From positions 1 through 39,548 of the IMG/VR virus record IMGVR_UViG_3300025288_000045: a DNA stretch of 39,548 nucleotides; one strand, given 5' to 3'. Below are positions 2,282 to 35,659 of the stretch, in pieces. The notes under the pieces were generated by a model, which worked only from the letters and a program-made list of their open reading frames with translations, searched no databases and was not told the DNA's origin. Source of the DNA: a virus (lineage: Duplodnaviria; Caudoviricetes). Made by a program: the position numbers and the translations under genes. The first letter of the stretch is position 1. Every line of letters starts with the position of its first letter.

Positions 2282-2797
2282 TTATTTATAGAAATGTTGA
2301 AATCTAAAAGGGGTGAATACAAACTGCCCGAGGGTGTCGTGATGGTATCCTTTGGCAATAGAAACCAGTCGCCATCCAAAGCCCCCTGTGATGCAGAACT
2401 CACCGAACCATGTCAGGGGCATAAGGTACGCAAAATGAAAGTATTTATCAGTGGTTATCAGATACCAGCCGCCCACGCCCTTTGCGCCATCTCTGATATA
2501 GAGATTGCCTCGCACCTTTACAGGAGTCGTCTCTGACACATTAGCTTGTAGGAGCTGGTCAAAGCCCTGTGCAGGGTTGCGGTTCATGTAAGTCAGGGCG
2601 AGCATATAGTCGCTGTAGTCTGGATGCTCCGCTTTCCACGGCGCGTCTCCGATAGCAAGGTTATCGGAGGGTTGAAACCACTTGAGCCAACGCGGGAGAT
2701 TGCCATCAGGTCGGACGAACAAAGCAAACAGCCAGTTGAGCAGATAGGCTGTCAGCGTGATTAGGACAGAGGCTAGGGCTTTGAGGGGATAGGTCAT
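2282..2797 (-). CDS. Hypothetical phage protein with N-terminal hydrophobic segment
   Basis: 171-aa ORF coupled by an ATGA overlap to the upstream chaperone-like gene; RNPAQGF motif. Confidence 0.6.
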   Translation of the reverse strand: MTYPLKALASVLITLTAYLLNWLFALFVRPDGNLPRWLKWFQPSDNLAIGDAPWKAEHPDYSDYMLALTYMNRNPAQGFDQLLQANVSETTPVKVRGNLYIRDGAKGVGGWYLITTDKYFHFAYLMPLTWFGEFCITGGFGWRLVSIAKGYHHDTLGQFVFTPFRFQHFYK

Positions 2798-3096
2798 GCA
2801 AGCGCCTTCACCAGCTCTGCACGTTCTGTCGCAATCTGCGCCTCTAATGCTGCCAGCCTATCGGTCGGGCCGCCCAGTAAGACTTCCCGCACCGCTCTGG
2901 ACTGTGATTGCTCAAGTGCATTTATGCGCCCTTTGATAGCTGCGATGGCGGCTTCTTTCACCTGCTCCGGCGTAGGCGCGCGCAATGCGTCCTCCTCGGC
3001 TTGCGTTATCAAAACGCAACCTACGGGGAGTAGATGCAAAGCCGCCCCATCCATGTCGTCGTGGATTTGACCGTTGCTGTCTTTATGTAGTGCCAT
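2794..3096 (-). CDS. Putative tail fibre assembly protein / chaperone
   Basis: Small ORF directly after a fibre gene; C-terminal amphipathic helix (RAVRE...LEAQIATERAEL). Confidence 0.6.
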   Translation of the reverse strand: MALHKDSNGQIHDDMDGAALHLLPVGCVLITQAEEDALRAPTPEQVKEAAIAAIKGRINALEQSQSRAVREVLLGGPTDRLAALEAQIATERAELVKALA

Positions 3097-3107
3097 TATT
3101 TTTTCCT

Positions 3108-3746
3108 TTAACGAAGTTCGGTTGAAACACCACTTGCTACTGAAGTTTCTGTAAGCAAATAAGATGCATTATTTGGTATTAGACAGTTTCCAACAATCTG
3201 CGGGGTTGCGGCATTCCCGGAACTATGTCTAGCAAAATCGAAAGGTGTTCCTCTGTTGATGGAAATAGTAACCCGAATGGTAGCTCCTGAACCATCGAAT
3301 GACTTTCGCAAAATGATAGGCTTACCCGTTGTGTTGTAATAAGTTGTTCCAGCAACCCTTGTAACGGCCTGCCAAGTTTGCCCGTAATGTCCGCCTGCCA
3401 ATGCATTGTTTGCTGTAGTATTAGCAGTCTCTGCTGTCTTCGGGTCAATCGCTCTTTGATAGTTCCTCACCTCGCAAGTGGTAGAGGTGAGCATGTACGC
3501 CTCGAAGGTGTCCCCTGCCGCTGTGGGGATAGTAGCTCCACCTTGCAGGATAGTCAGCCCTGCACTGTGTGCCAAGGGACCAGCACCATCAGTGGTTATT
3601 TCATAAGTTACTCCTACAATCCCAGTAAATGAATCTATCTGAGCCGTACCAGTAAGCAAGATCTTAGTAGCTTCACCAAGAGCGACTGTTGAAGCTCTAG
3701 CAATAGATACTTGTGTTGCTTGTACTGCTGCATTAACTATTCCCAT
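3108..3746 (-). CDS. Short tail fibre / receptor-binding protein
   Basis: GQTWQ...TTYYNTTGKPI tip motif ending ELR; shares a ~200-bp repeat with 8966..9760. Confidence 0.75.
   Translation of the reverse strand: MGIVNAAVQATQVSIARASTVALGEATKILLTGTAQIDSFTGIVGVTYEITTDGAGPLAHSAGLTILQGGATIPTAAGDTFEAYMLTSTTCEVRNYQRAIDPKTAETANTTANNALAGGHYGQTWQAVTRVAGTTYYNTTGKPIILRKSFDGSGATIRVTISINRGTPFDFARHSSGNAATPQIVGNCLIPNNASYLLTETSVASGVSTELR
3368..3563. repeat. Direct repeat copy 1 (partner 9223..9439)
   Basis: Near-identical DNA including a 64-bp perfect match (3500-3563 = 9376-9439); copy 2 has a 21-bp insertion. Confidence 0.95.
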
Positions 3747-4287: not shown

Positions 4288-5499
4288 TTAAATAGCCTGT
4301 AAGTGGTCACAGGCGGCACGCAACCCAGTGCTCCAGACCGAGGACCACGGGGAGTAGAACCAAAGGGAAGCCCGCGAACCGGAGTGCGCGCCGCACGCGC
4401 GCGAGCCGCCCAGGATGACGCGCACAAGGCCATATGTGCCTAAGGTATAGATAGAGCCTCGCTGACTACCCGCAGCACCTGTATTGCCGGTCACTGTCTT
4501 GTAGCTACCCGCGCCAGATGCGTCCTGGTGTGCACTAGAATCCTGCCCCCACGTCCATTGATGGCCTGACGCCTGCTCAATGCCGTACTTGCTGGTGTAG
4601 CCTGCATTGCGTTGCGTGGTCGGGTAGGTTGAAGCGGTGGCATCGATGGACTGGTTCTCGGTCACGCCAAAGAACGCTGTGGCAGCTTCTTCTTCAAACA
4701 TCAGGCGCTTCTGCTTCGCGCGCGCCAGCTCGTTCGCCACCCACCAGTTCAGCGATGGGTAGGTGGTTGTGCCATTCCCCCCGAATGCGGTTGGAATCTT
4801 TGGCAGTACCGTTCCGCTGGCGATGTTCGTGTTGTACTTGCTGGTGCCGTTGGTGTCGGTATCGGTGCTGGCAAGGTAGATGTCCACCCACACCTCTCCA
4901 TCCACCAACACCATTCCGCGCGGGTCGGATGCCGCTGGGCGGAACTTCAAGTCCCAGATGCTCCATGCGTTGATACCAGCAATCTTATCTACATCAGCTT
5001 GAGTCCAGATCATGCCATTGCCTGTTGTGGCAAAACCACCACTAGCAACCGTTGTACCTGCAGCTACAAGACCGTGATGGAAGCCTCCGATCTTGCGCCA
5101 ATTGCCTGCGGCGGGTGCGCTTATAAAGTCCGTTGTAGCCTGAATCGTTGCATCGTCCTTCACCCAGATTGCGTAGTCCGTTCCACCAACAAGGGCAGGC
5201 ATAGTGATAGCTGTATCAGATGAGAATGTAACCATAGTTTCAGCCACACTAATCCTAGTACCTGCCTTTATTGAAAGTGCTCCCGCAGATACCTTAGTGA
5301 AGATAGGGGTTAATGAGTCAACTTTTAAAATTGAATTGTAACTAGAATTGTTTAACTGGCCCAGATTAACAATATGTCCAGACGATGTTGCATCTGGAAC
5401 CAATACCCCAGTTGAATCAGCTATTAGTTTATCAACTCCGCCAAATTGGATAGAGCCTGATAAACCATCTGCTGCTGTTTTTAATGATATGTTTGACAC
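4288..5499 (-). CDS. Mtd-like (major tropism determinant) receptor-binding protein with C-type lectin/FGE-type C-terminal domain
   Basis: GGFHHG, WSIWDLKFRP, DPRGM, WVDIYL, and a C-terminal GG-x7-SGSRA-x2-W...GLRAACDHL closely resembling the Bordetella phage BPP-1 Mtd C-terminus. Confidence 0.85.
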   Translation of the reverse strand: MSNISLKTAADGLSGSIQFGGVDKLIADSTGVLVPDATSSGHIVNLGQLNNSSYNSILKVDSLTPIFTKVSAGALSIKAGTRISVAETMVTFSSDTAITMPALVGGTDYAIWVKDDATIQATTDFISAPAAGNWRKIGGFHHGLVAAGTTVASGGFATTGNGMIWTQADVDKIAGINAWSIWDLKFRPAASDPRGMVLVDGEVWVDIYLASTDTDTNGTSKYNTNIASGTVLPKIPTAFGGNGTTTYPSLNWWVANELARAKQKRLMFEEEAATAFFGVTENQSIDATASTYPTTQRNAGYTSKYGIEQASGHQWTWGQDSSAHQDASGAGSYKTVTGNTGAAGSQRGSIYTLGTYGLVRVILGGSRACGAHSGSRASLWFYSPWSSVWSTGLRAACDHLQAI

Positions 5500-7162: not shown

Positions 7163-8512
7163 TTAGAGTTCTGCATCGGCAAACCAGTAGAACCTGTATC
7201 CATATAGTCCAGTAGCAATATGGCTTGTAGTAAATCCTTCAGTGGTTGCAAACATGGATATGGCGGTAGGGGTTATATTATCAGTACTAGAAGTGTTTCT
7301 CATCTCTGTTATCTTATTTACGTTTCCAGCTGCGTCTGTAAATGATATAGTAGATATAACCCTTTTAGCTACAGAATAGTTACTAATACTCCTAATATAG
7401 TTGTTAGTAGCTGTACCAAATTCATAGTATGTGTGCCCTGTTTCGTAATACCTCTGGCACAACTCCAGCTCAGTCCCAATAGGGCGTTGTTCAAACGGGG
7501 TTGCCAACGAACCCTCTTCCAGTTGAACCTGAGCAATGGAAATAACTTTAGAAGACTGCCCTATAGCTCCTGACCTACTATCATAAGTAGACCCCGCATC
7601 TAACCAGATGGTCAGACCGGTATAGCTAGAAGTGCCTATAGTTTTACCGGATATATCAGGCACTGTTATAGTTTTTGTGTATTTAGTCCAGGTGGTAGAT
7701 AGTACTTGGGCTTGTCCTACTCCTAAAGTAGAAGCAGATCCCCCACTACCAAAATTCTGGGAAATCTCTATACCTATAGAAGGGGAACCTACGGCAGCTT
7801 TAGCCCAGAAAGATAGTGTTACTGCCTTACCTGCTAATGAACTAACTCCTTCAAGTCTCTGACCGAAATTACATAGATTCCCTGCTCCAGCTACGGAGTT
7901 TACTGTTATCTCAGTGTAGTACTGAGCCCCCCCAGAGCTAAATAAAGCATCACTTGATGTGAGGGTACCTTGTGCGGCGGAGAAAGTAGTTCCCTCCACA
8001 CCTACTAACCATCTATCTGCAGGTCCGTACACTCCACTAGTAGTAACCGGGGTAGTACCCCTCTGCCAGATATCGAAGTTACCATTTATAATCTTATTTC
8101 TAAACCCGAACAACTGAGAGCCGTTCACGGCTTGGGTCTGGCTAGTAGCAGCTGCAACAATAGTCTTCCCGGTAGTAACATCTACAGAGTGAGTCTTAAC
8201 CCAAGTAGGTACTACCCCGGCCGTAGCAGGAGCTGCATACCAGTATTCCTTAAGTGCTCCTGTATCGGTCCACTTTTCCAACCAGCATTCACCGGTTGTA
8301 TCACGTCCAGCCCAAATTCCCGTAGTAGTATTAACTGCTACGTTAAAGGATTTACCAATTTCAATAGTTCCAACGGTAGCTGCATTAGTAACATCAGCGT
8401 ATTCCCTGACCTGGGCACAGCCAGCAGGAGTTAAGGTACGTAGTAAACCTGGACTCTCTTGGTTTATTGGAGTCCCATTATCCTTAAGCATTGCGTATGG
8501 TAATTTGTTCAT
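7163..8512 (-). CDS. Tail fibre / receptor-binding protein with carbohydrate-binding-like module
   Basis: FRNKIINGNFDIWQRG...ADRW...VQLEEGSLATPFEQRP--ELELCQRYY...ADAEL. Confidence 0.8.
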   Translation of the reverse strand: MNKLPYAMLKDNGTPINQESPGLLRTLTPAGCAQVREYADVTNAATVGTIEIGKSFNVAVNTTTGIWAGRDTTGECWLEKWTDTGALKEYWYAAPATAGVVPTWVKTHSVDVTTGKTIVAAATSQTQAVNGSQLFGFRNKIINGNFDIWQRGTTPVTTSGVYGPADRWLVGVEGTTFSAAQGTLTSSDALFSSGGAQYYTEITVNSVAGAGNLCNFGQRLEGVSSLAGKAVTLSFWAKAAVGSPSIGIEISQNFGSGGSASTLGVGQAQVLSTTWTKYTKTITVPDISGKTIGTSSYTGLTIWLDAGSTYDSRSGAIGQSSKVISIAQVQLEEGSLATPFEQRPIGTELELCQRYYETGHTYYEFGTATNNYIRSISNYSVAKRVISTISFTDAAGNVNKITEMRNTSSTDNITPTAISMFATTEGFTTSHIATGLYGYRFYWFADAEL

Positions 8513-27817: not shown

Positions 27818-29485
27818 CTATGCTGTGAAATTGTCTATGTCAAATAGTGAATCGGAGTGAGAGGGTGTATCGTCAGTATAGACGAAGTCTCCCTTAAGCA
27901 CCATATATGCTATGTTTGCGAATACTATTGAGTGGAGCCAGTCGTCACATAAATCCTGGTCATGCCTATACAGTCTACGTCCGGACTGAGATTCCTCTTC
28001 GTACACGTTAAGGGCATCCTGCCAGAATGGGTTAGTTAGCTCCCATGCTGGGGTCTCAAACCTACCCTTACCGAGTTTCATCTTTAATATAACGGTATCT
28101 ATATTCATAGTTCTATCAGCTGCGTAAAATAGACCCTGTTTATCCCATCTTAGCTGAGTTTTAGAGGCTACATAGTTAACCATAGCTACTTTCTGATCCC
28201 CTAAGTGCTGCTTAAATAACTGACCCTGTAATACCCCCACCCCTCTGTCTGAGCCGATGAAGGAACACTCAAACTGATGATAAAGTTGTTCAGCACGCTT
28301 TACTTGTAATAGCACGTCAATCCCGTCTAATTTCTGGCTATACAATAGATAACACTTACCGTTATAGTCATAACCTAAAATTGAGATTATAGTATAAGAC
28401 TTAGTACTACCTGACACAGACCAATCTACCCCTAATACAGTACACACTATATTTCTAGAGTCTCTAGGAAATCCAGTATCCCAAGCCGTCTTAGAGGTAT
28501 TACAGCAATCCATACACTCCTTAATAGAGAGAATGCGGCCTCCTTCTCCACTAGGAAGTCCAAAGACTTCATTGGCTACTTTCTGCATCGAGTAACCTTT
28601 GGACCCGTTAAGGCCAAAAATCTTACCTCTCATCTCTTCCCATTTTCCAGGCTTTTCAACTGTACCTGTCCTTGTACGTACTGGGAATATAAGTTGAGGG
28701 AGATGCATCCCTATATAGTTTTTAACCTCAGGTCTGGCAGCCGCCCACCTACCGGTAGACATATTTAATACCTTGCCGCAGTACACACAGCCGGGGCCTA
28801 AAGGATTCTCTGATATTTTTAAGCACGTCTCAAAGTCGATAGGAATTGTATATTTACCACAGTGCTCACATTTGCAAACCCATTCACATTGAGAAGATTT
28901 TTTATATTCAACCTCTAGCGTATTATTGAGTGTCTTACTGGTTCCGGCTAGTCTCTTAAATCCAAATTCAGAAGCTGATAATGTTTCATATAGAACTGGT
29001 AGGGCGTCTTGGGAAATGTCCTGTATCTCGTCCAAAAGGAGCTGATCACAGGAAGCGCCACGCACACGTCCACTATCTGCTTCTGTCTCGGCGTAGCTGA
29101 GATAAATGCGGGATCCATTATTTAGTGACTTCTCAAACACGTTCTTTTTTGAGGACGTATCCATGAAATGTTTTTTTAGAACAGGGCTGGCTAAAAATGG
29201 ATCTAGGTATGCCGAAGAAAATCTACTAGTCTGACCACTCAATGGAGATATAAACATAGTGGTAAAGAATGGTCTAATCACAGACTGAGCGATGATTGTT
29301 GCACCTAGCCCCAGGGACTTCCCAATCTGTCTTGAAGCGCGTAAAACCAGCTGTGGTGGGGCTATATCGTAGATTAGCTCCATAGGGAGATAGTCTTTCA
29401 TATTAAGGGGTTTACCTCGTACCTGTAGTAGGGCGCGGGCTATCTCGGAGGGTTTTAATTTTATAAGGCTAGACAGATTACTCAT
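27818..29485 (-). CDS. terL: Terminase large subunit (GpA-like)
   Basis: Walker A SRQIGKS, Walker B LLLDEIQD, coupling motif GTS, CEHC/CVYC zinc ribbon, nuclease GVDW and C-terminal DDWLHS. Confidence 0.92.
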   Translation of the reverse strand: MSNLSSLIKLKPSEIARALLQVRGKPLNMKDYLPMELIYDIAPPQLVLRASRQIGKSLGLGATIIAQSVIRPFFTTMFISPLSGQTSRFSSAYLDPFLASPVLKKHFMDTSSKKNVFEKSLNNGSRIYLSYAETEADSGRVRGASCDQLLLDEIQDISQDALPVLYETLSASEFGFKRLAGTSKTLNNTLEVEYKKSSQCEWVCKCEHCGKYTIPIDFETCLKISENPLGPGCVYCGKVLNMSTGRWAAARPEVKNYIGMHLPQLIFPVRTRTGTVEKPGKWEEMRGKIFGLNGSKGYSMQKVANEVFGLPSGEGGRILSIKECMDCCNTSKTAWDTGFPRDSRNIVCTVLGVDWSVSGSTKSYTIISILGYDYNGKCYLLYSQKLDGIDVLLQVKRAEQLYHQFECSFIGSDRGVGVLQGQLFKQHLGDQKVAMVNYVASKTQLRWDKQGLFYAADRTMNIDTVILKMKLGKGRFETPAWELTNPFWQDALNVYEEESQSGRRLYRHDQDLCDDWLHSIVFANIAYMVLKGDFVYTDDTPSHSDSLFDIDNFTA

Positions 29486-29857: not shown

Positions 29858-30073
29858 ATGGCAGAGATCGTCCAAACAAACATCGTAATTACCGCAACTG
29901 ACACTGAGTACCAGGTACCTGGTTCATTGAGTGTCTCCCAAGTTGTGGCTGCATATTCCAGCCAAATCCCCGGTCTGTCTGGCTATCAGGCTTCGGATGA
30001 GATCGTGACACGTGAAGGCATTGGCCAAGTTCGCGTTATCACCTTCCGTCCCAAAACTGGTACTAAGGGTTAA
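29858..30073 (+). CDS. Prokaryotic ubiquitin-like protein (Prok_Ub / PRTRC protein C-like)
   Basis: 71 aa, beta-grasp-like pattern, C-terminus F-x-P-K-T-G-T-K-G; AAGGA RBS; first gene of an E2/JAB/E1 cluster. Confidence 0.85.
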   Translation: MAEIVQTNIVITATDTEYQVPGSLSVSQVVAAYSSQIPGLSGYQASDEIVTREGIGQVRVITFRPKTGTKG

Positions 30074-30100
30074 TCTTTAACCCTGGTGGAGAAACGGGTT

Positions 30101-30126
30101 CGGGTCCAGCTGGACCCGTTTTTTTT
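30101..30126 (+). terminator. Intrinsic terminator after the Ubl gene
   Basis: Palindrome CGGGTCCAGCTGGACCCG followed by T8. Confidence 0.8.
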
Positions 30127-30146
30127 AGTAAGAGGAGGTTTATATT

Positions 30147-30977
30147 ATGGCAGAAGTAAAGGTTTTTCTAAAAAACAGTATACCGTCACTATCTAGGTTA
30201 ATAGTAAATTACCGTAAAGAAAGGATTAATAAGCTCCTGGAGTTCACTACGGCTAAAAGTAAAGAATATGGTATTATTCCAAAATCATCCACTGTGGTGG
30301 CAGATTTAAGGGTTACCTCTTCTACCTCCAGGAAGTTTTTTAAAAAAATTTATACCTCTTTATATAATCAGGTGGCTAAAAAAGTCCCCTATATGGATTT
30401 CATGGAGAAGGATGAAGTGGAGATGGTTAATAGTGGACTGAGTTTAACAGTACCATTAATAACTACCAGGATTCTTGTTAACATGGAGGGGCTGGTGGAC
30501 GTGGACGATGTAGGACTGAAGCCTAATCCTAATAGTAAGAGCCGCTTATATGTTAGTAACGATATTATATGTTCTCATCTGGAATCCTCAGGAGCAGATT
30601 TTGATTCAAAGACAATACGAAGATACTTGGCATATCTTAATTATAAGGCCGCTAGGAATGGGTGTCCTATTAAGCTTTTTTTAAAGGTTAGAGCTGAATC
30701 AATAGCGGGATTACCTAGAGAGGGTTCCCGACTTATGCCTGTACTATTTTTTATGAATATTAAAGTAGAATTAGGTAGTTGGTATGTAGGTGATATGGCA
30801 GACGGCGATATCCCAGTATCATATGGGTTTGGCTCTTTTGGTATTTCTCCAGATACCTATAGTAGGTATCCAGAGTGCTCCTCATTCAACTTATTTACAT
30901 TCTTGGATGATATATCCAAAGTTATTAGAACATTAAGTAGGAAAGGAAATTATAATGCAAGCGCCTATATTATCTAG
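30147..30977 (+). CDS. Hypothetical protein in the Ubl operon
   Basis: 276 aa with a strong GAGGAGG RBS; no motif recognised. Confidence 0.7.
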   Translation: MAEVKVFLKNSIPSLSRLIVNYRKERINKLLEFTTAKSKEYGIIPKSSTVVADLRVTSSTSRKFFKKIYTSLYNQVAKKVPYMDFMEKDEVEMVNSGLSLTVPLITTRILVNMEGLVDVDDVGLKPNPNSKSRLYVSNDIICSHLESSGADFDSKTIRRYLAYLNYKAARNGCPIKLFLKVRAESIAGLPREGSRLMPVLFFMNIKVELGSWYVGDMADGDIPVSYGFGSFGISPDTYSRYPECSSFNLFTFLDDISKVIRTLSRKGNYNASAYII

Positions 30978-31224
30978 TATAGCGTTAAGTTTAAATAGGG
31001 CTACCAGTATAACTGATGATGTAGTTGAAGCAATTAAAGAGTCATACCTGATAAAAGATATATCCACCAGAGAAGATGTAATTTCCTGTGTTAAAAACAT
31101 CACTACCATATTCGGGGTAGAGCACAACGGTGGCTTGCACTTGAGAAATGTAGTAAACAATGTTATTGGCTCAGTGAGGAAAGCTAAGCACTATTCTAAC
31201 CTAACATCAGGAGATTTCGTATGA
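30955..31224 (+). CDS. Hypothetical protein in the Ubl operon
   Basis: 89 aa with an AAGGA RBS; ATGA overlap with the E2 gene. Confidence 0.6.
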   Translation: MQAPILSSIALSLNRATSITDDVVEAIKESYLIKDISTREDVISCVKNITTIFGVEHNGGLHLRNVVNNVIGSVRKAKHYSNLTSGDFV

Positions 31225-32024
31225 GTGAAGGTATAGTTATTGAGGGGTCTCAGGATACCCCAGAAGTAGTAGAGGCCGCGCTTGTAGCTAGTAAGGCTCT
31301 ATCTGACTTAGAAGAAACACTGTTGACCCAGGTGAGGGTGAATGGGCAAGAAGTAACACTGATGGACGATGCAGTCATAATTAAAGGCGTGGGTGGTATT
31401 AATAAAACTATCTCATATGAGGACTTTATTAGTTCAGTCCTTAGGGCTACTAATACCCTTTCCGAAGAAACTAAGTTATCATTGTCTCTACCCGGTAGTG
31501 TATCCTACTTGGCAGTGGGGCCCACTGAGTTAGATATCTCTTGTTATTATAAAGAAGGGGTTAAACCCTTCCAATTCTCTGATGGGAGTAGAATGGAAAG
31601 GTATGACATAGTAGTTCCTAATATTATCGTCAGCCATAAACTTAGAAGAGAAAGAAGTGACTGGGTCCATAATGGAGCATTCTATACTGTAACAAATATG
31701 CCGGTTAATAAGCTACCACAGGACAGACTTATTACAACTATGGACCGTGATAGGGGTATTTTTCTAATGCCATTTACCAACGCATATGACTCTTGTAATA
31801 TGTGTTATGGAGGTAATAAGATGCCCGTTAGATTTATAGATAATAACCTGAGGGGCCTAGACTACTACTACAACTTCCTATGGGAATCTCCATTTAATAA
31901 TGACTTGGGTATTAGTAGCAAAGTAAACCGAAACATGTTCTCCAGCCCCGTACAATGGTACCATCATCTCAGGGATCTAGCTATAGATAATAAGCCATTC
32001 CCCTATGGGGACCTACGACGTTAA
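31221..32024 (+). CDS. Prokaryotic E2-like protein (Prok-E2 family D / PRTRC protein B-like)
   Basis: PFTNAYDSCNMCYG (candidate catalytic Cys) and FLWESPFNNDL motifs. Confidence 0.8.
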   Translation: MSEGIVIEGSQDTPEVVEAALVASKALSDLEETLLTQVRVNGQEVTLMDDAVIIKGVGGINKTISYEDFISSVLRATNTLSEETKLSLSLPGSVSYLAVGPTELDISCYYKEGVKPFQFSDGSRMERYDIVVPNIIVSHKLRRERSDWVHNGAFYTVTNMPVNKLPQDRLITTMDRDRGIFLMPFTNAYDSCNMCYGGNKMPVRFIDNNLRGLDYYYNFLWESPFNNDLGISSKVNRNMFSSPVQWYHHLRDLAIDNKPFPYGDLRR

Positions 32025-32040
32025 ATAACGGCGTAGATAA

Positions 32041-32049
32041 TGGTATAAG
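32041..32049 (+). promoter_or_regulatory. Extended -10 promoter candidate upstream of JAB
   Basis: TGGTATAAG in the intergenic gap before an AAGGAG RBS. Confidence 0.45.
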
Positions 32050-32095
32050 TAACTAGTAGTATGTAATAAACCATCTACTAAAGGAGATAAATTAA

Positions 32096-32563
32096 ATGCA
32101 AATATTGATGCCTAATATCAGTTGCATCTGCCACAGTTTACAGGAAGAGACTGATGCAGTTACACAAGGCTACAAAGAGATCTACACCATTGTAAAAGAC
32201 GAATACTTCAAGAAACATGTATTCCGTGGGGAGAACCGTTTCATTAGACTGAAGGTAGACTCTATTCCGGGATATGTTCGTCCTGCTTCTGAAATCATCC
32301 CGGCTGAAATGACTAGACAAGAGATTGCCTTTCTGCCAGCGGGAAAGATCTCCTATGATATCTGGGAGCAGATCATCGCCTTCTTTAAGAAGGTTATGGA
32401 AGTAAAGAAATCAGAAGTAGAGGCAATGATCCACGTCCTTTATAATGCTGAGCGAGGGTACCACATTGGTGTCCCCCCTCAGACAGTTTCCAAGGGAAGT
32501 GCTAGTTACGACTGGGAATACGTCCCGACGGGAACTAGTGTAATCGTGGATATTCACAGCCAT
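32096..32563 (+). CDS. JAB/MPN metallopeptidase (PRTRC protein A-like), exon 1
   Basis: Catalytic Glu in EVEAM, VPPQTVS, ends ...VDIHSH. Confidence 0.9.
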
Positions 32564-32746
32564 TAACTCCTAAGTATGGTGGCCTAATCAGGTAACTGAT
32601 TTGATAAAATCGGGTGAACTCAGACAACTGAGGTGTAGGATAACTCCTGCTAACGGGGAACGGAAATGCGAATTCCCAATCCCGTGCTAAGCTTGCGAAA
32701 AGACATTGAAGTAGCAAGAAAGTGTAACGACTAATCCTTGAGCAGT

Positions 32747-33619
32747 CTATGCAATAATAGGAACACGAGCGCCCGACTCCGAAGAACTTTCGGATGATGA
32801 TATAGTCTGATCTTGTGGTATTTCGTAGTATTTATCGTATTTACGTTTTAAGTAAAAAGTACAATCTTTATAGACAGTATCCATGAACAGTTGTACATCT
32901 TCCTTAGAGTTTATATCTAAGGAAAATATGGATTTCTTCTTACTTATGAGAAACTGTTTAGGCTTTAAGAAATCAGCCATGCCTAGTAAAAACTCCTTAG
33001 TTCCACAGATAGTTATAACTGGATTTACATAGGTTTTTACATATCCCCTCTTAGAGACATACCTAGTCTTTTTCCAGTACATACAGCCATCACCATCATG
33101 ATATCCTAATGTGAATGATGCGTGGAACTTACTAGGGATTAATGGATACAAATTAGGCATAGTAAGTGATTTGCGATAACCCAACCCATACTGTCGCAAA
33201 TCATCGCAAATTTGTTGATTACAAACGCGGAAGGACACCTGGTCCTTATTTTCAAAATAGTGTATAGCTAACTCAGACCCGAGTTCTCTCTTCAACGTAT
33301 CGAGGACTGTACGATCCTTGCTGAGTATGTTAATTGCCAGAGTATCTCTATGGCCACTATTAGTTTTACTCTCTACTATACATCCATCTGCTGCTATAAA
33401 GCCTAGAAAATATGCTTTAATGTGTGAGTCTATAGTCTGAAAGTAACTCATATTACCTTGGTGTGGTGTTAACTTCCCCGTTATCCCTCTGTGACGTTTA
33501 TATAGCTTAGGTATAGTAGTTCGATGTAACCCAAACATGGCTGCAATTTCAGTCCCTGTTTTTCCGTCATCGTACATTTTACATATTAGTTCTATATCGT
33601 CACTATCAACTGATTTCAT
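32747..33619 (-). CDS. LAGLIDADG homing endonuclease (two motifs, N-terminal HTH), antisense within the intron
   Basis: YFLGFIAADGCI and FTLGYHDGDGCM motifs, LKRK C-terminal motif, N-terminal TGTEIAAMFGLHRTTI HTH; AAGGA RBS. Confidence 0.92.
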   Translation of the reverse strand: MKSVDSDDIELICKMYDDGKTGTEIAAMFGLHRTTIPKLYKRHRGITGKLTPHQGNMSYFQTIDSHIKAYFLGFIAADGCIVESKTNSGHRDTLAINILSKDRTVLDTLKRELGSELAIHYFENKDQVSFRVCNQQICDDLRQYGLGYRKSLTMPNLYPLIPSKFHASFTLGYHDGDGCMYWKKTRYVSKRGYVKTYVNPVITICGTKEFLLGMADFLKPKQFLISKKKSIFSLDINSKEDVQLFMDTVYKDCTFYLKRKYDKYYEIPQDQTISSSESSSESGARVPIIA

Positions 33620-33643
33620 CTTAATCCTTTATTTATTGATAGT

Positions 33644-33672
33644 ATTTTAACGTAACATGCCATATACCGCAA
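33644..33672 (-). promoter_or_regulatory. Sigma70-type promoter candidate for the endonuclease
   Basis: TTGCGG-17 nt-TAAAAT on the minus strand. Confidence 0.6.
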
Positions 33673-33704
33673 GGGCTTAAATTAAAAAAAGCTATAACTT
33701 ATTG

Positions 33705-34538
33705 AATACAATGGGAAGTTTCTTTTCAGCGACGGATGATCGAGATGACCTTAATGCCATTGGTTTTTCAGGCGTTGTAGGAAAACTCAAAGATAAAGAA
33801 CCAGAAGTAAAAATCCGCTTTAACTACTACAAACAGAAGTATGAAGTAAAACTCCAGGATATCTTCCATACGCCAGAAGATCGTGTTGTGGATGTTCCTG
33901 AAGAGTGGTTAGCTAACGTTAATACTCCTAACTACTCAGTGGGACGCGGGGATTACCGGGGGTATCAGGGTGGCCATAAGTGGGATCATTTGAAACAGTA
34001 TCAATTCTCTAAGGCTAACCCGGATAACACAACTGCATCTGGTGAACGTGCTGGACCTAACGTACGGGGTCTACCTTATCACTCGGATCCAACTTCTCTA
34101 GGATCAATATTTGGAGACGACGAAGGGGGGCTCCCACCGGGTTTTCCCTCGGGGGCTCAGGGAAAACTCCCCCTGGGTCCCGCAGGTTCTCGAAACGTGA
34201 GCAGAGAGCTAATAGAAAAGCCCTGCGAGAAGCAGTTAAGGGATGAGAGTAGTGGTGAAGAGATAGATGAGAATGATCCTGTTGGAAACTACCTCAGTAC
34301 ATTAGAAGATGACCAATACGCGTTCTTGGCCATTCAATATGGTGGGGAGGTAGCCAATGCATTTTCATTGATCAGTGATTGTATGACTGCCCTATCCGGT
34401 AAAGATGAACTTATATCAGAAGTTATCTGCGATCTATTCCAGTTAATGGAAGATGAAAAACAGGTGGATATGGTTAGGGAACTGTACAATACACTCCCGT
34501 GGAAGTATCAATCACAAATAGCAGAAAACGGTATGTGA
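33705..34538 (+). CDS. JAB/MPN metallopeptidase, exon 2
   Basis: NTMGSFFSATDDRDD completes HxH-x7-S-x2-D; spliced product 433 aa with a low-complexity linker and helical C-domain. Confidence 0.9.
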   Translation, partial: NTMGSFFSATDDRDDLNAIGFSGVVGKLKDKEPEVKIRFNYYKQKYEVKLQDIFHTPEDRVVDVPEEWLANVNTPNYSVGRGDYRGYQGGHKWDHLKQYQFSKANPDNTTASGERAGPNVRGLPYHSDPTSLGSIFGDDEGGLPPGFPSGAQGKLPLGPAGSRNVSRELIEKPCEKQLRDESSGEEIDENDPVGNYLSTLEDDQYAFLAIQYGGEVANAFSLISDCMTALSGKDELISEVICDLFQLMEDEKQVDMVRELYNTLPWKYQSQIAENGM

Positions 34539-34588
34539 AGGTGGGGGTTAAACACCCCCTCCTATTACTAATTTAAAAGGAGAGGCAC

Positions 34589-35659
34589 TTGTTTAATTTT
34601 ATTCCATCAACCATTCCCCATAATATCATCGTTGTAGGATGTGGGGGGACCGGCTCCAGGTTAGTCCCCCTGTTGGCTCAGTTTATCCGATCTATCACCA
34701 AGGATTATTCACCACGAGGATGGTTAGGCACCCCCAATATTGTGTTATGTGATCCTGATACGATTGAGGAAAAAAACTTGGCACGTCAAAACTTCATCCA
34801 CCAGGATGTTGGTAAGAATAAGGCAGTAGTTCTGGCCGAACGATATAGCAAGGCTTATGGGGTGTCTATTATACCGATGACTTCTCGTATAGAAGGACAT
34901 ATGGATATCCAAACATTCTTTACTACCCAATTAGGTGTGAACCTGGAGAGTGAACCATGTATGATCATCATGTGTGTTGACTCCGTAGTAGCCAGGAGAA
35001 ATATTATCTCTAACGCTATGTCAATCGTAGACCTTAATGATAACTATAGTAATGCGAATGTGTTTATCATTGATTCTGGTAATGAGGATAATTTTGGCCA
35101 AGTAAACTTCTTCAATCCAGAGATAGGTTTGCATCCTGATAATTTCGAAGTGGGAGTAATTGAAAAATTACCCAAGATGATTACTCACGTGGAAAATATA
35201 CACAGTATACCTATGGATATTAAGCATTATCTAGAGTTGGCTGATAATCCGGGCCTAGGTAGTTGTGCTGATCTAGATCAAACTTTGGCCATCAACGCCC
35301 TAGTAGCAACAAATATTATTGCAGTAGTTCAGAATTATTATTACCGTAAACCTATGAACTTCAACAAAGTATTTGTGGATATGTTAGGAGGTTCTTCTAC
35401 CACCTTTAATACTATGTCTTACTTTCTATCCATAGCTGCTGAGAGTTACACTGCTATTAAGAGTCACCCTAACCTTAAAGAATTATCCTGCATGGATGTA
35501 CACCTTGGTAATAACAACGATGTCATATACAGAATGGTTAAAGGTATTATTCATAAAGAGGAGACTGCTCGTATTAAGGAGGAAGAGGCTGCGAAAAGGG
35601 CTATGATAATGGCTGCGGTAAGGGCTAAGCTAAGGCTAGGGGTAATACCCACCAGGTAG
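34589..35659 (+). CDS. ThiF/E1-like ubiquitin-activating enzyme (PRTRC ThiF-like)
   Basis: VVGCGGTGS, DPDTIEEKNLARQNF, CVDS, IDSGN, and SCAD (candidate catalytic Cys). Probably extended to 35908 originally. Confidence 0.93.
   Translation: MFNFIPSTIPHNIIVVGCGGTGSRLVPLLAQFIRSITKDYSPRGWLGTPNIVLCDPDTIEEKNLARQNFIHQDVGKNKAVVLAERYSKAYGVSIIPMTSRIEGHMDIQTFFTTQLGVNLESEPCMIIMCVDSVVARRNIISNAMSIVDLNDNYSNANVFIIDSGNEDNFGQVNFFNPEIGLHPDNFEVGVIEKLPKMITHVENIHSIPMDIKHYLELADNPGLGSCADLDQTLAINALVATNIIAVVQNYYYRKPMNFNKVFVDMLGGSSTTFNTMSYFLSIAAESYTAIKSHPNLKELSCMDVHLGNNNDVIYRMVKGIIHKEETARIKEEEAAKRAMIMAAVRAKLRLGVIPTR

What the first reader, a model, noticed from the sequence alone, without database searches (positions are those of the whole stretch)
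32564..33704. Group I intron splits the JAB peptidase inside its zinc-binding motif
Seen: exon 1 ends ...CAC AGC CAT (HSH) and exon 2 begins AAT ACA ATG (NTM). Joining them gives HSHNTMGSFFSATDDRDD, a perfect JAB HxH-x7-S-x2-D motif. P1 with the U.G wobble, P10, P3, P7, P8, P9 and the terminal G are all traceable. Established: phage group I introns mostly occupy DNA-metabolism, terminase, lysin and structural genes, at conserved codons. Inference: a JAB isopeptidase is an unusual host. An intact intron implies the gene is expressed, selected and common enough among relatives to support homing. Automated annotation would report two broken genes.
Basis: partly seen in the sequence, partly recalled or inferred. 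Interest (0 to 1): 0.85.

Follow-up and report, generated by a model that had tools for sequence, protein, structure and literature searches.

The report
Histidine-codon-hopping intron splits phage JAB protease
A 1,141-base group I intron carrying a backwards-facing homing-endonuclease gene interrupts the zinc-binding codons of a phage JAB peptidase gene and is likely removed by self-splicing; related introns sit at three neighbouring histidine codons of this motif and in an adjacent gene, and a pair of cultured phages with and without one makes its predicted spread testable.

Summary
Confirmed. 32564-33704 is a group IA intron. Removing it restores a 433-aa PRTRC-A-like JAB protein with the full E..HSH-x7-S-x2-D motif, as in intronless homologues. 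Core helices covary, both exons are under purifying selection, and the intron is identical between strains whose flanks differ 2.5%. No spliced RNA was seen (thin coverage). Nine distinct related introns all follow a CAT His codon: three sites 6 nt apart in JAB genes, and once in the neighbouring E2-like gene, with guide sequences that mostly fit their own site. Their endonucleases group together and all lie antisense. Cultured Flavobacterium phage Fpv1 carries one, unannotated; FpV4, nearly identical here and with the same recorded host, lacks it. The scan had already found JAB-splitting introns on other DNA; its index returned nothing for Fpv1. Known kind of element; new host gene, antisense layout and apparent site-hopping.

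The parts
32096..32563 (+). JAB (PRTRC protein A-like) exon 1, 156 codons; holds the conserved Glu (EVEAM) and both His of HSH
32564..33704 (+). Group IA intron, 1141 nt, terminal G at 33704
32574..32583 (+). Internal guide: 32579-32583 pairs with exon 1 end 32559-32563 (P1, U.G at the splice site); 32574-32577 pairs with exon 2 33706-33709 (P10)
32586..32807 (+). Ribozyme core: P2 32586-32601; P3 32610-16/32770-76; two hairpins 32620-31 and 32635-50; P4 32653-57/32681-85; P6 32686-88/32721-23; P7 32729-33/32803-07; P7.1 32735-38/32759-62; P8 32778-94
32812..33673 (+). P9: 10-bp stem (32812-32821 with 33664-33673) that loops out the endonuclease gene
32747..33619 (-). Antisense two-motif LAGLIDADG endonuclease gene, 290 aa, N-terminal HTH, both motif Asp present; its last ~25 codons overlap the ribozyme core
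33620..33672 (-). Candidate promoter (33672-33644, only 8 of 12 consensus matches, not above shuffles) and AAGGA ribosome-binding site for the endonuclease gene
   Evidence: suggestive only
33705..34538 (+). JAB exon 2, 277 codons; holds the Ser and Asp of the motif
29858..30073 (+). 71-aa ORF ending TKG, likely the ubiquitin-like protein of the cassette (no family hit; inferred from size, end and position)
31221..32024 (+). Prok-E2_D protein, upstream neighbour
   Evidence: E 2.5e-5, 24.5 bits against cut-off 25
34589..35659 (+). ThiF/E1-like protein, downstream neighbour

Best explanation
A group IA intron sits directly after the second zinc-binding His codon of a phage JAB peptidase gene; it likely self-splices to restore the enzyme, and it likely spreads by homing through the LAGLIDADG endonuclease encoded on its opposite strand. 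Shown: the boundaries, the restored frame, the core helices and their covariation, the endonuclease fold and motifs, intronless alleles, and related introns at other His codons. Inferred: (1) the cassette transcript folds P1-P10, G attacks at U32563, and exon ligation at G33704 gives the JAB mRNA; (2) the endonuclease is made from a separate antisense transcript that starts near the P9 3' strand, so ribosomes do not run through the ribozyme on the spliced RNA; (3) the endonuclease cuts intronless HSH-coding DNA in co-infecting phages and repair copies the intron in; (4) rarely, the family reaches another His codon of the motif or a similar H-S-H string in the neighbouring gene and re-matches its guide sequence. 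The element is most likely selfish: a site at catalytic codons makes imprecise loss costly.
For: Frame, motif and intronless alleles. Covariation; P2, P7.1, P8 and P9 keep their pairing with different letters in 5 introns. Selection on both exons against L002. Homing-like signs: 0 differences in the 1141-nt intron against L001 and L049, inside the longest identical run (32537-33838, 1302 nt) of a 10.5-kb alignment that is 97.5% identical. Fpv1 against intronless FpV4: 2 differences in 1833 nt upstream, and all 11 downstream differences in the first ~35 aligned nt of exon 2. The L002 and L046 cores are 89% identical while their JAB proteins are 47% identical. Split forms are scattered on the JAB tree: 20 changes for 28 split rows among 205. 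Endonuclease: Pfam LAGLIDADG_1 and _3 above cut-off; model pLDDT 93; the listed PDB matches are LAGLIDADG endonucleases or maturases, best E 1e-9; both motif Asp invariant in 71 aligned homologues. L002 has lost the endonuclease gene but kept the ribozyme and a 3' remnant, as the usual intron life cycle predicts.
Against: No spliced junction in the two RNA libraries, whose cover is thin and patchy, with no contig across either splice site. The Rfam score is below the family cut-off here, and Rfam finds nothing for the Fpv1 or L046 introns. A 774-nt identical run also occurs elsewhere between the window and L001, so mosaic recombination could give the identical tract. The window's antisense promoter is no better than shuffles (195 of 500). 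Split forms are more clustered on the tree than shuffled labels (20 against 26.7), so part of the spread is vertical. Guide fit is not perfect: L093's and L046's guides fit another site as well as or better than their own. Cleavage and JAB activity are untested.
Confidence: 0.85

Rival explanations
1. The intron is real but domesticated: splicing rate or the antisense endonuclease transcript times JAB production, or the endonuclease helps the phage against co-infecting intronless competitors.
For: The antisense ORF covers P7.1 to P9, so its transcript could pair with the precursor. An intron endonuclease that interferes with a co-infecting phage is reported (PMC11620839, listing and start of abstract only).
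Against: Most homologues are intronless (137 of 150 representatives do not end at the motif). L002 lost the endonuclease gene. The sites differ between lineages. A benefit in competition would add to homing rather than replace it.
Confidence: 0.1
2. The intron no longer splices here, and the JAB gene is a pseudogene or is made as two separate pieces (exon 2 has in-frame TTG and ATG starts at 33702 and 33711).
For: No spliced RNA was seen. L046's intron has a P7 mismatch, so decay occurs in the family. Split phage genes beside free-standing endonucleases are known (recalled).
Against: Every P3, P4 and P7 pair is intact in the window; low dN/dS in both exons; the ORF-less L002 intron keeps a full core; the break would put the His ligands and the Ser/Asp on different chains.
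Confidence: 0.04
3. Assembly artefact or chance structure.
For: The sequence is an uncultured metagenomic contig, and the Rfam score is under the cut-off.
Against: The same intron lies in L001 and L049 with different flanking alleles. RNA-library contigs match intron parts exactly. A cultured phage has the same layout.
Confidence: 0.01

Closest known systems
Phage subgroup IA group I introns with homing endonucleases (T4 td, nrdB, nrdD; IA2 introns of phage DNA polymerase genes such as Pf-WMP3)
   Same: P1-P10 core, U.G at the 5' site, terminal G, extra helix between P7 and P3', ORF in a peripheral loop that overlaps the core, insertion at critical codons of a conserved gene (PMC3984707, PMC2988022, PMC3428280; passages).
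   Different: Host is a JAB peptidase of a ubiquitin-like cassette. The ORF is antisense and LAGLIDADG, whereas PMC3984707 names GIY-YIG, HNH, PD-(D/E)xK and EDxHD as typical of phage introns. One branched P7.1 instead of P7.1 plus P7.2 linked by GUA.
Nuclear rDNA group I introns with antisense endonuclease genes (Didymium I-DirII, I-DsqI)
   Same: Endonuclease gene in a peripheral loop (P9.2 in Dsq.L2066) on the opposite strand, expressed from its own transcript (PMC9548176, PMC3073962; passages).
   Different: Those are eukaryotic, His-Cys box, group IE (L2066), in rRNA genes. This one is phage, LAGLIDADG, group IA, in a protein gene, and the ORF overlaps the core.
Sense-strand LAGLIDADG endonucleases of phage and bacterial introns (Staphylococcus phage recA I-MsaII type; Bacillus phage 0305phi8-36 ORF036; dnaE introns in L201 and L227)
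   Same: Same fold, 24-31% identity; L201 and L227 carry closely related ribozymes (105-110 bits).
   Different: Where orientation was checked (fetched loci) they are sense, lie in other host genes, and fall outside the antisense group in the tree. Orientation of the Staphylococcus and 0305phi8-36 records was not checked.
PRTRC system protein A (TIGR03735) / Prok-JAB (PF14464); E1-E2-JAB-Ubl operons of Iyer, Burroughs and Aravind 2006 (PMC1779556, passages)
   Same: JAB motif, and Ubl-like, E2 and ThiF/E1 neighbours.
   Different: Phage-borne; below the TIGR03735 cut-off (67 against 101.8 bits for intronless L003); long low-complexity C-terminal extension; interrupted by an intron.

Membership tests
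Group I intron | P1 with U.G at the 5' splice site, P10, terminal G | tested here: met
Group I intron | Core P3, P4, P6, P7, P8 with R and S elements and the G-binding pair | tested here: met
Group I intron | Rfam RF00028 gathering score (50 bits) | tested here: not met
   33 bits, E 2.9e-6; relative L031 passes at 52.9 bits
Group I intron | Discrete insertion relative to intronless alleles that restores the frame | tested here: met
   for Fpv1 against FpV4
Group I intron | G-dependent self-splicing, ligated exons | tested here: inconclusive
Subgroup IA | Extra helix P7.1 between P7 and P3', bulged C in P7 (criterion recalled) | tested here: met
   all 4 P7.1 pairs change on both sides
Subgroup IA2 | P7.1 and P7.2 linked by G-U-A (PMC3428280) | tested here: not met
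   one stem with an internal loop and inner hairpin in 5 introns; filed as IA only
Monomeric LAGLIDADG homing endonuclease | Two LAGLIDADG helices with acidic catalytic residues, LAGLIDADG fold | tested here: met
Monomeric LAGLIDADG homing endonuclease | Cleaves the intronless allele near the insertion site | not testable with these tools
   indirect only: identical tract and exon-2 difference cluster
JAB/JAMM metallopeptidase | E-xn-H-S/T-H-x7-S-x2-D (PMC300881, start of abstract) | tested here: met
   spliced frame; E, H, H, S and D invariant in 32 intronless homologues; PF14464 on L003 above cut-off
JAB/JAMM metallopeptidase | Zinc-dependent (iso)peptidase activity on a Ubl | not testable with these tools
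   needs an assay
PRTRC protein A (TIGR03735) | Curated score cut-off of 101.8 bits | tested here: not met
   intronless homologue L003 67.2 bits, exon 2 32 bits; PRTRC-A-like, not a member

The most novel reading that the evidence does not exclude
One lineage of phage group IA introns with antisense LAGLIDADG genes specialises in His-x-His coding strings. It walks in 6-nt steps between the CAT codons of the JAB zinc motif and has jumped into the H-S-H motif of the neighbouring E2-like gene, re-matching its guide each time. That would be a natural, traceable case of ectopic group I intron transposition in protein genes, a route for which PMC3984707 reports no direct evidence by reverse splicing, and the cultured Fpv1/FpV4 pair opens it to experiment.
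Probability: 0.4. Interest if true: 0.75.

Novelty: new variant of a known kind. Interest (0 to 1): 0.52.

Why it matters
It marks the phage ubiquitin-like conjugation cassette as conserved and expressed enough to sustain several homing elements, which argues that it matters to these phages. It shows a large, apparently undescribed group of phage intron endonucleases encoded antisense and overlapping the ribozyme (59 of 85 homologues end in the antisense reading of the S element). Sister introns at neighbouring His codons and in an adjacent gene bear on how group I introns reach new sites. In practice these introns are missed: 13 of 150 representative JAB proteins are cut at the motif in databases, and a cultured phage is mis-annotated.

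Tried and rejected
RNA evidence: two metatranscriptomes hold small shares (0.16 and 0.10). Their contigs cover the region in short patches at depth 2-7, with no joint, and they cover the structural genes alike, so DNA carry-over is not excluded. A 212-nt contig over the core (32574-32785, depth 6.9) is not taken as an excised intron. Site C (proteins ending HNTMG plus a few residues; 12 rows): a DNA pattern scan gave 5 unrelated matches, and a scan with P0063 gave only contigs already scored as intronless, so this site rests on protein ends alone and is left out of the DNA-level counts. The metagenome pattern scan gave 13 loci: 3 JAB introns (L043, which has the window's length and identical proteins; L049; L046), 1 intron in another gene (L052) and 9 chance matches. 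L110's antisense S-like motif is a false hit. A single-sequence fold failed (pLDDT 39), and a PDB sequence search gave nothing useful. A genome scan with the exon-1 alignment could not run. The long JAB homologues inspected (5 of 725-916 aa) show low-complexity tails and no obvious intein. The alternative 3' site G33713 was rejected. The sigma-70 and terminator scan was no richer than shuffles. The crAss-like cr106_1 JAB is annotated as one intact gene. PMC4853749 was not relevant. The E2 label for the gene split in L166 is not proven: no Pfam E2 or PHROG hit; the Atlas gives Prok-E2_D on 11% of one cluster at score 0.84, a lead only.

Full report
1. Observation. The window is a fragment of a tailed-phage genome: it has a terminase at 27818-29485, a homologous locus lies on a 185-kb record rated complete, and the host is unknown. 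The + strand block 29858-35659 reads small Ubl-like ORF, two unknown ORFs, Prok-E2_D, JAB, ThiF/E1. The JAB ORF stops after HSH at 32563. Removing 32564-33704 gives one 433-aa frame that reads HSH|NTM and carries the whole E..HSH-x7-S-x2-D motif (motif as in PMC300881, start of abstract). Intronless homologues fix both boundaries: 19 of 21 viral loci are intact (many are near-copies), and so are 4 further loci. Rfam RF00028 matches at E 2.9e-6 but below the gathering score. Across four JAB introns, 13 of 39 core pairs change on both sides and 97.4% of cells pair, against 88% in shuffles and 32-44% in slid controls (only four related sequences, structure taken from the window). A bulged C in P7 and a helix between P7 and P3' point to subgroup IA (criteria recalled). 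The IA2 criterion quoted in PMC3428280 is not met.

2. P9 (32812-32821 with 33664-33673) encloses most of a 290-aa ORF on the opposite strand (32747-33619). It has an N-terminal HTH and two LAGLIDADG motifs with both acidic residues. The model has mean pLDDT 93, and the listed PDB matches are LAGLIDADG endonucleases or maturases. The ORF's last ~25 codons are the antisense reading of S, P8, P3' and P7.1. The same tail (xTIS) ends 59 of 85 homologues, so the antisense layout is likely a family trait. In a quick tree built with those tails mostly trimmed, all 8 endonucleases seen antisense in DNA and all 46 tail-bearing proteins fall in one 72-row group (SH-aLRT 80; two halves at 97) that holds none of the 15 sense-located ones (12 near-copies were left out beforehand, L127 was dropped by the tool, and the careful search did not finish). 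Sigma-70-like sites whose -35 box overlaps the P9 3' strand score 10 of 12 in L046, L031 and L168 (14, 31 and 36 of 500 shuffles as good), but only 8 of 12 in the window (195 of 500). A TAnnTTTG motif (Bacteroidetes promoter, recalled) lies 19-26 nt before the end of the scanned upstream stretch in Fpv1, L093 and L164 (about 10% of shuffles each). L166 has neither. A separate antisense promoter is therefore plausible, not shown.

3. Selection and mobility. Against L002 (93% identical over the JAB domain), dN/dS is 0.024 for exon 1 and 0.036 for the first 70 codons of exon 2 (0.21 for all of exon 2), so both halves are kept as protein. Against L001 and L049 the intron has 0 differences in 1141 nt while the E2, E1 and upstream genes differ 3-4%. 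The longest identical run in the 10.5-kb alignment covers the intron (32537-33838), though a 774-nt run lies in the terminase gene. The L002 and L046 cores are 89% identical although their JAB proteins are 47% identical. Among 150 representative homologues, 13 end within 14 residues of the first His, none end 15-49 residues after it, and 4 end 50-149 after it; 11 of the 11 other near-length hits also end at the motif. On the JAB tree 28 split rows among 205 need 20 changes (shuffled mean 26.7; 4 proteins skipped): scattered, but partly inherited.

4. Several sites, always after a His codon. Nine distinct introns were seen in DNA. After the second His: window/L001/L049, L031, L168. After the first His, 6 nt upstream: L002 (342 nt, ORF lost, 3' remnant kept), L046, L093, L164. 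After a His two codons further upstream: Fpv1. And in L166, in the H|SH of the gene upstream of an intact JAB; its halves align to residues 13-176 and 177-415 of the intact homologue in L164. That gene is called E2-like from its position, its H-S-H..C motif and a weak Atlas lead only. The L164 (JAB) and L166 (E2-like) introns are 73% identical over 886 nt, and their endonucleases share a 5-row clade at 100. All nine follow CAT. Five of them were reached through the endonuclease alone, so without bias toward JAB. A model built from four JAB introns scores those five at 77-116 bits on the strand opposite the endonuclease, and finds none in FpV4, L003, L008 or the Arash locus. Among the 123 of 151 endonuclease loci that were given to the model, only L093, L164, L166 and L168 had antisense hits; a motif scan of all 151 agreed. 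Guides mostly fit their own exons best: mean 8.5 against 6.0 pairs, and 58 of 40320 permutations do as well (8 introns, L168 left out; biased, because each guide position was chosen for its own site). L093 and L046 are exceptions. The window's and L046's endonucleases lie in different halves of the group although their cores are 81% alike, so ribozyme and endonuclease have also been reshuffled. A further site after HNTMG is suggested by 12 protein ends, with no DNA seen.

5. A cultured pair. Flavobacterium phage Fpv1 (NC_031914.1) has exon 1 (gp56), an antisense endonuclease (gp55, 39% identical to the window's), exon 2 (gp54) and ThiF, with no intron annotated. 22 records carry the 1021-nt intron and 7 (FpV4, Fpv3 and derivatives) lack it; FpV4 and Fpv3 list the same host strain as Fpv1. 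Fpv1 and FpV4 differ at 2 of 1833 nt upstream and at 11 places, all within the first ~35 aligned nt of exon 2, as co-conversion from another donor allele would leave. P1 is 6 bp and P10 7 bp. Rfam misses this intron. The window's own JAB family has intronless cultured members, for example Salmonella phage Arash and Vibrio phage D69.

6. Mechanism. Most likely (0.85) a selfish mobile intron: it self-splices from the cassette mRNA (inferred), makes its endonuclease from an antisense transcript (inferred), and homes into intronless HSH-coding DNA (inferred from the identical tract, the exon-2 difference cluster and the mismatch between intron and host divergence). How it changes site is open. Reverse splicing is favoured by the repeated CAU ends, which any GUG-starting guide fits; relaxed endonuclease cutting or independent invasions by related introns are the alternatives. 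PMC3984707 says reverse splicing needs 4-6 complementary bases and lacks direct evidence. RNA data did not test splicing.

7. Known and new. Phage introns at critical codons are expected (PMC2988022, passages). PMC12350094 notes their preference for nucleotide-synthesis and DNA-metabolism genes (passages). PMC7886860 names MCP, PolB, primase and an ATPase as hosts in crAss-like phages, with no JAB mention in the main text (passages). Antisense intron endonucleases are described for Didymium rDNA (PMC9548176, PMC3073962; passages). Ten searches listed no paper on a group I intron in a JAB gene, on the Fpv1 intron, or on an antisense endonuclease in a phage intron. The library lacks most subscription papers, I saw only listings for most hits, and I did not read supplements; those of PMC7886860 and PMC12350094 may list such introns. 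Of PMC3984707 I read part 1 of 7 and passages; of PMC1779556 passages; of PMC11620839 and PMC300881 the listing only. This scan has reported JAB-splitting introns at least four times on other DNA; its index returned nothing for Fpv1.

8. Verdict. Real, and a known kind of element. The host gene, the antisense overlapping endonuclease group, the His-codon site series with a jump to the neighbouring gene, and a ready-made cultured pair lift it to a new variant. Interest 0.52.

Noticed in passing
L087 (NC_031914.1 67331-66311) and L088 (NC_041872.1): Cultured Flavobacterium phages Fpv1 (intron-plus; 22 records) and FpV4/Fpv3 (intron-minus; 7 records) differ by an unannotated JAB intron with an antisense LAGLIDADG gene.
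   Followed up: yes
L166 3358-2360 (minus strand): Sister intron in the H|SH motif of the E2-like gene upstream of an intact JAB.
   Followed up: yes
window 29858-35659 (+): Phage-borne Ubl-like, two unknown ORFs, E2_D, JAB, E1 cassette, oriented opposite to the surrounding structural genes; a similar six-gene block lies in Salmonella phage Arash (L244).
   Followed up: partly
L046 3150-3260: The intron has a P7 mismatch and a J8/7 change and may be decaying; its last 60 nt are 93% identical to L002's despite distant hosts. A tRNA gene lies at L046 4899-4972.
   Followed up: partly
window 32579-32586; L046 and L093 5' ends: The window's and L046's guides could pair 8 bases with the Fpv1-type exon end, and L093's guide fits the window's site better than its own; perhaps traces of earlier sites, perhaps chance.
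   Followed up: partly
L201 and L227 (about 2400-3600): Closely related ribozymes with sense LAGLIDADG genes interrupt a DnaE-like polymerase gene (named from recalled motifs) just before KSHAAAY in two Bacillota genomes.
   Followed up: partly
L027-L041, L052: Other viral introns with the same core and the same two hairpins before P4, in unrelated genes; L027, L032 and L037 hold two introns each. Clostridium perfringens phages phiCP13O, phiCP34O and CPQ4 have a similar unannotated core.
   Followed up: no
L092; crAss001 and relatives: crAss-like phages carry a similar E2-like plus JAB ('metalloprotease domain') pair; intact in cr106_1.
   Followed up: partly
window minus strand 2290, 3764, 17323, 19331, 24262, 26140: TATAAATA (T4-type late promoter, recalled) occurs 6 times on the structural-gene strand and twice on the other.
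   Followed up: no
window 4288-5499 and 7163-8512 (-): Tail-fibre-like genes with Mtd second domain and CBM_4_9 hits; no diversity-generating retroelement was looked for.
   Followed up: no
P0163, P0192, P0195, P0196, P0199: JAB homologues of 725-916 aa with long low-complexity middles and a conserved acidic C-terminal helical segment ending in xNG[LF].
   Followed up: no
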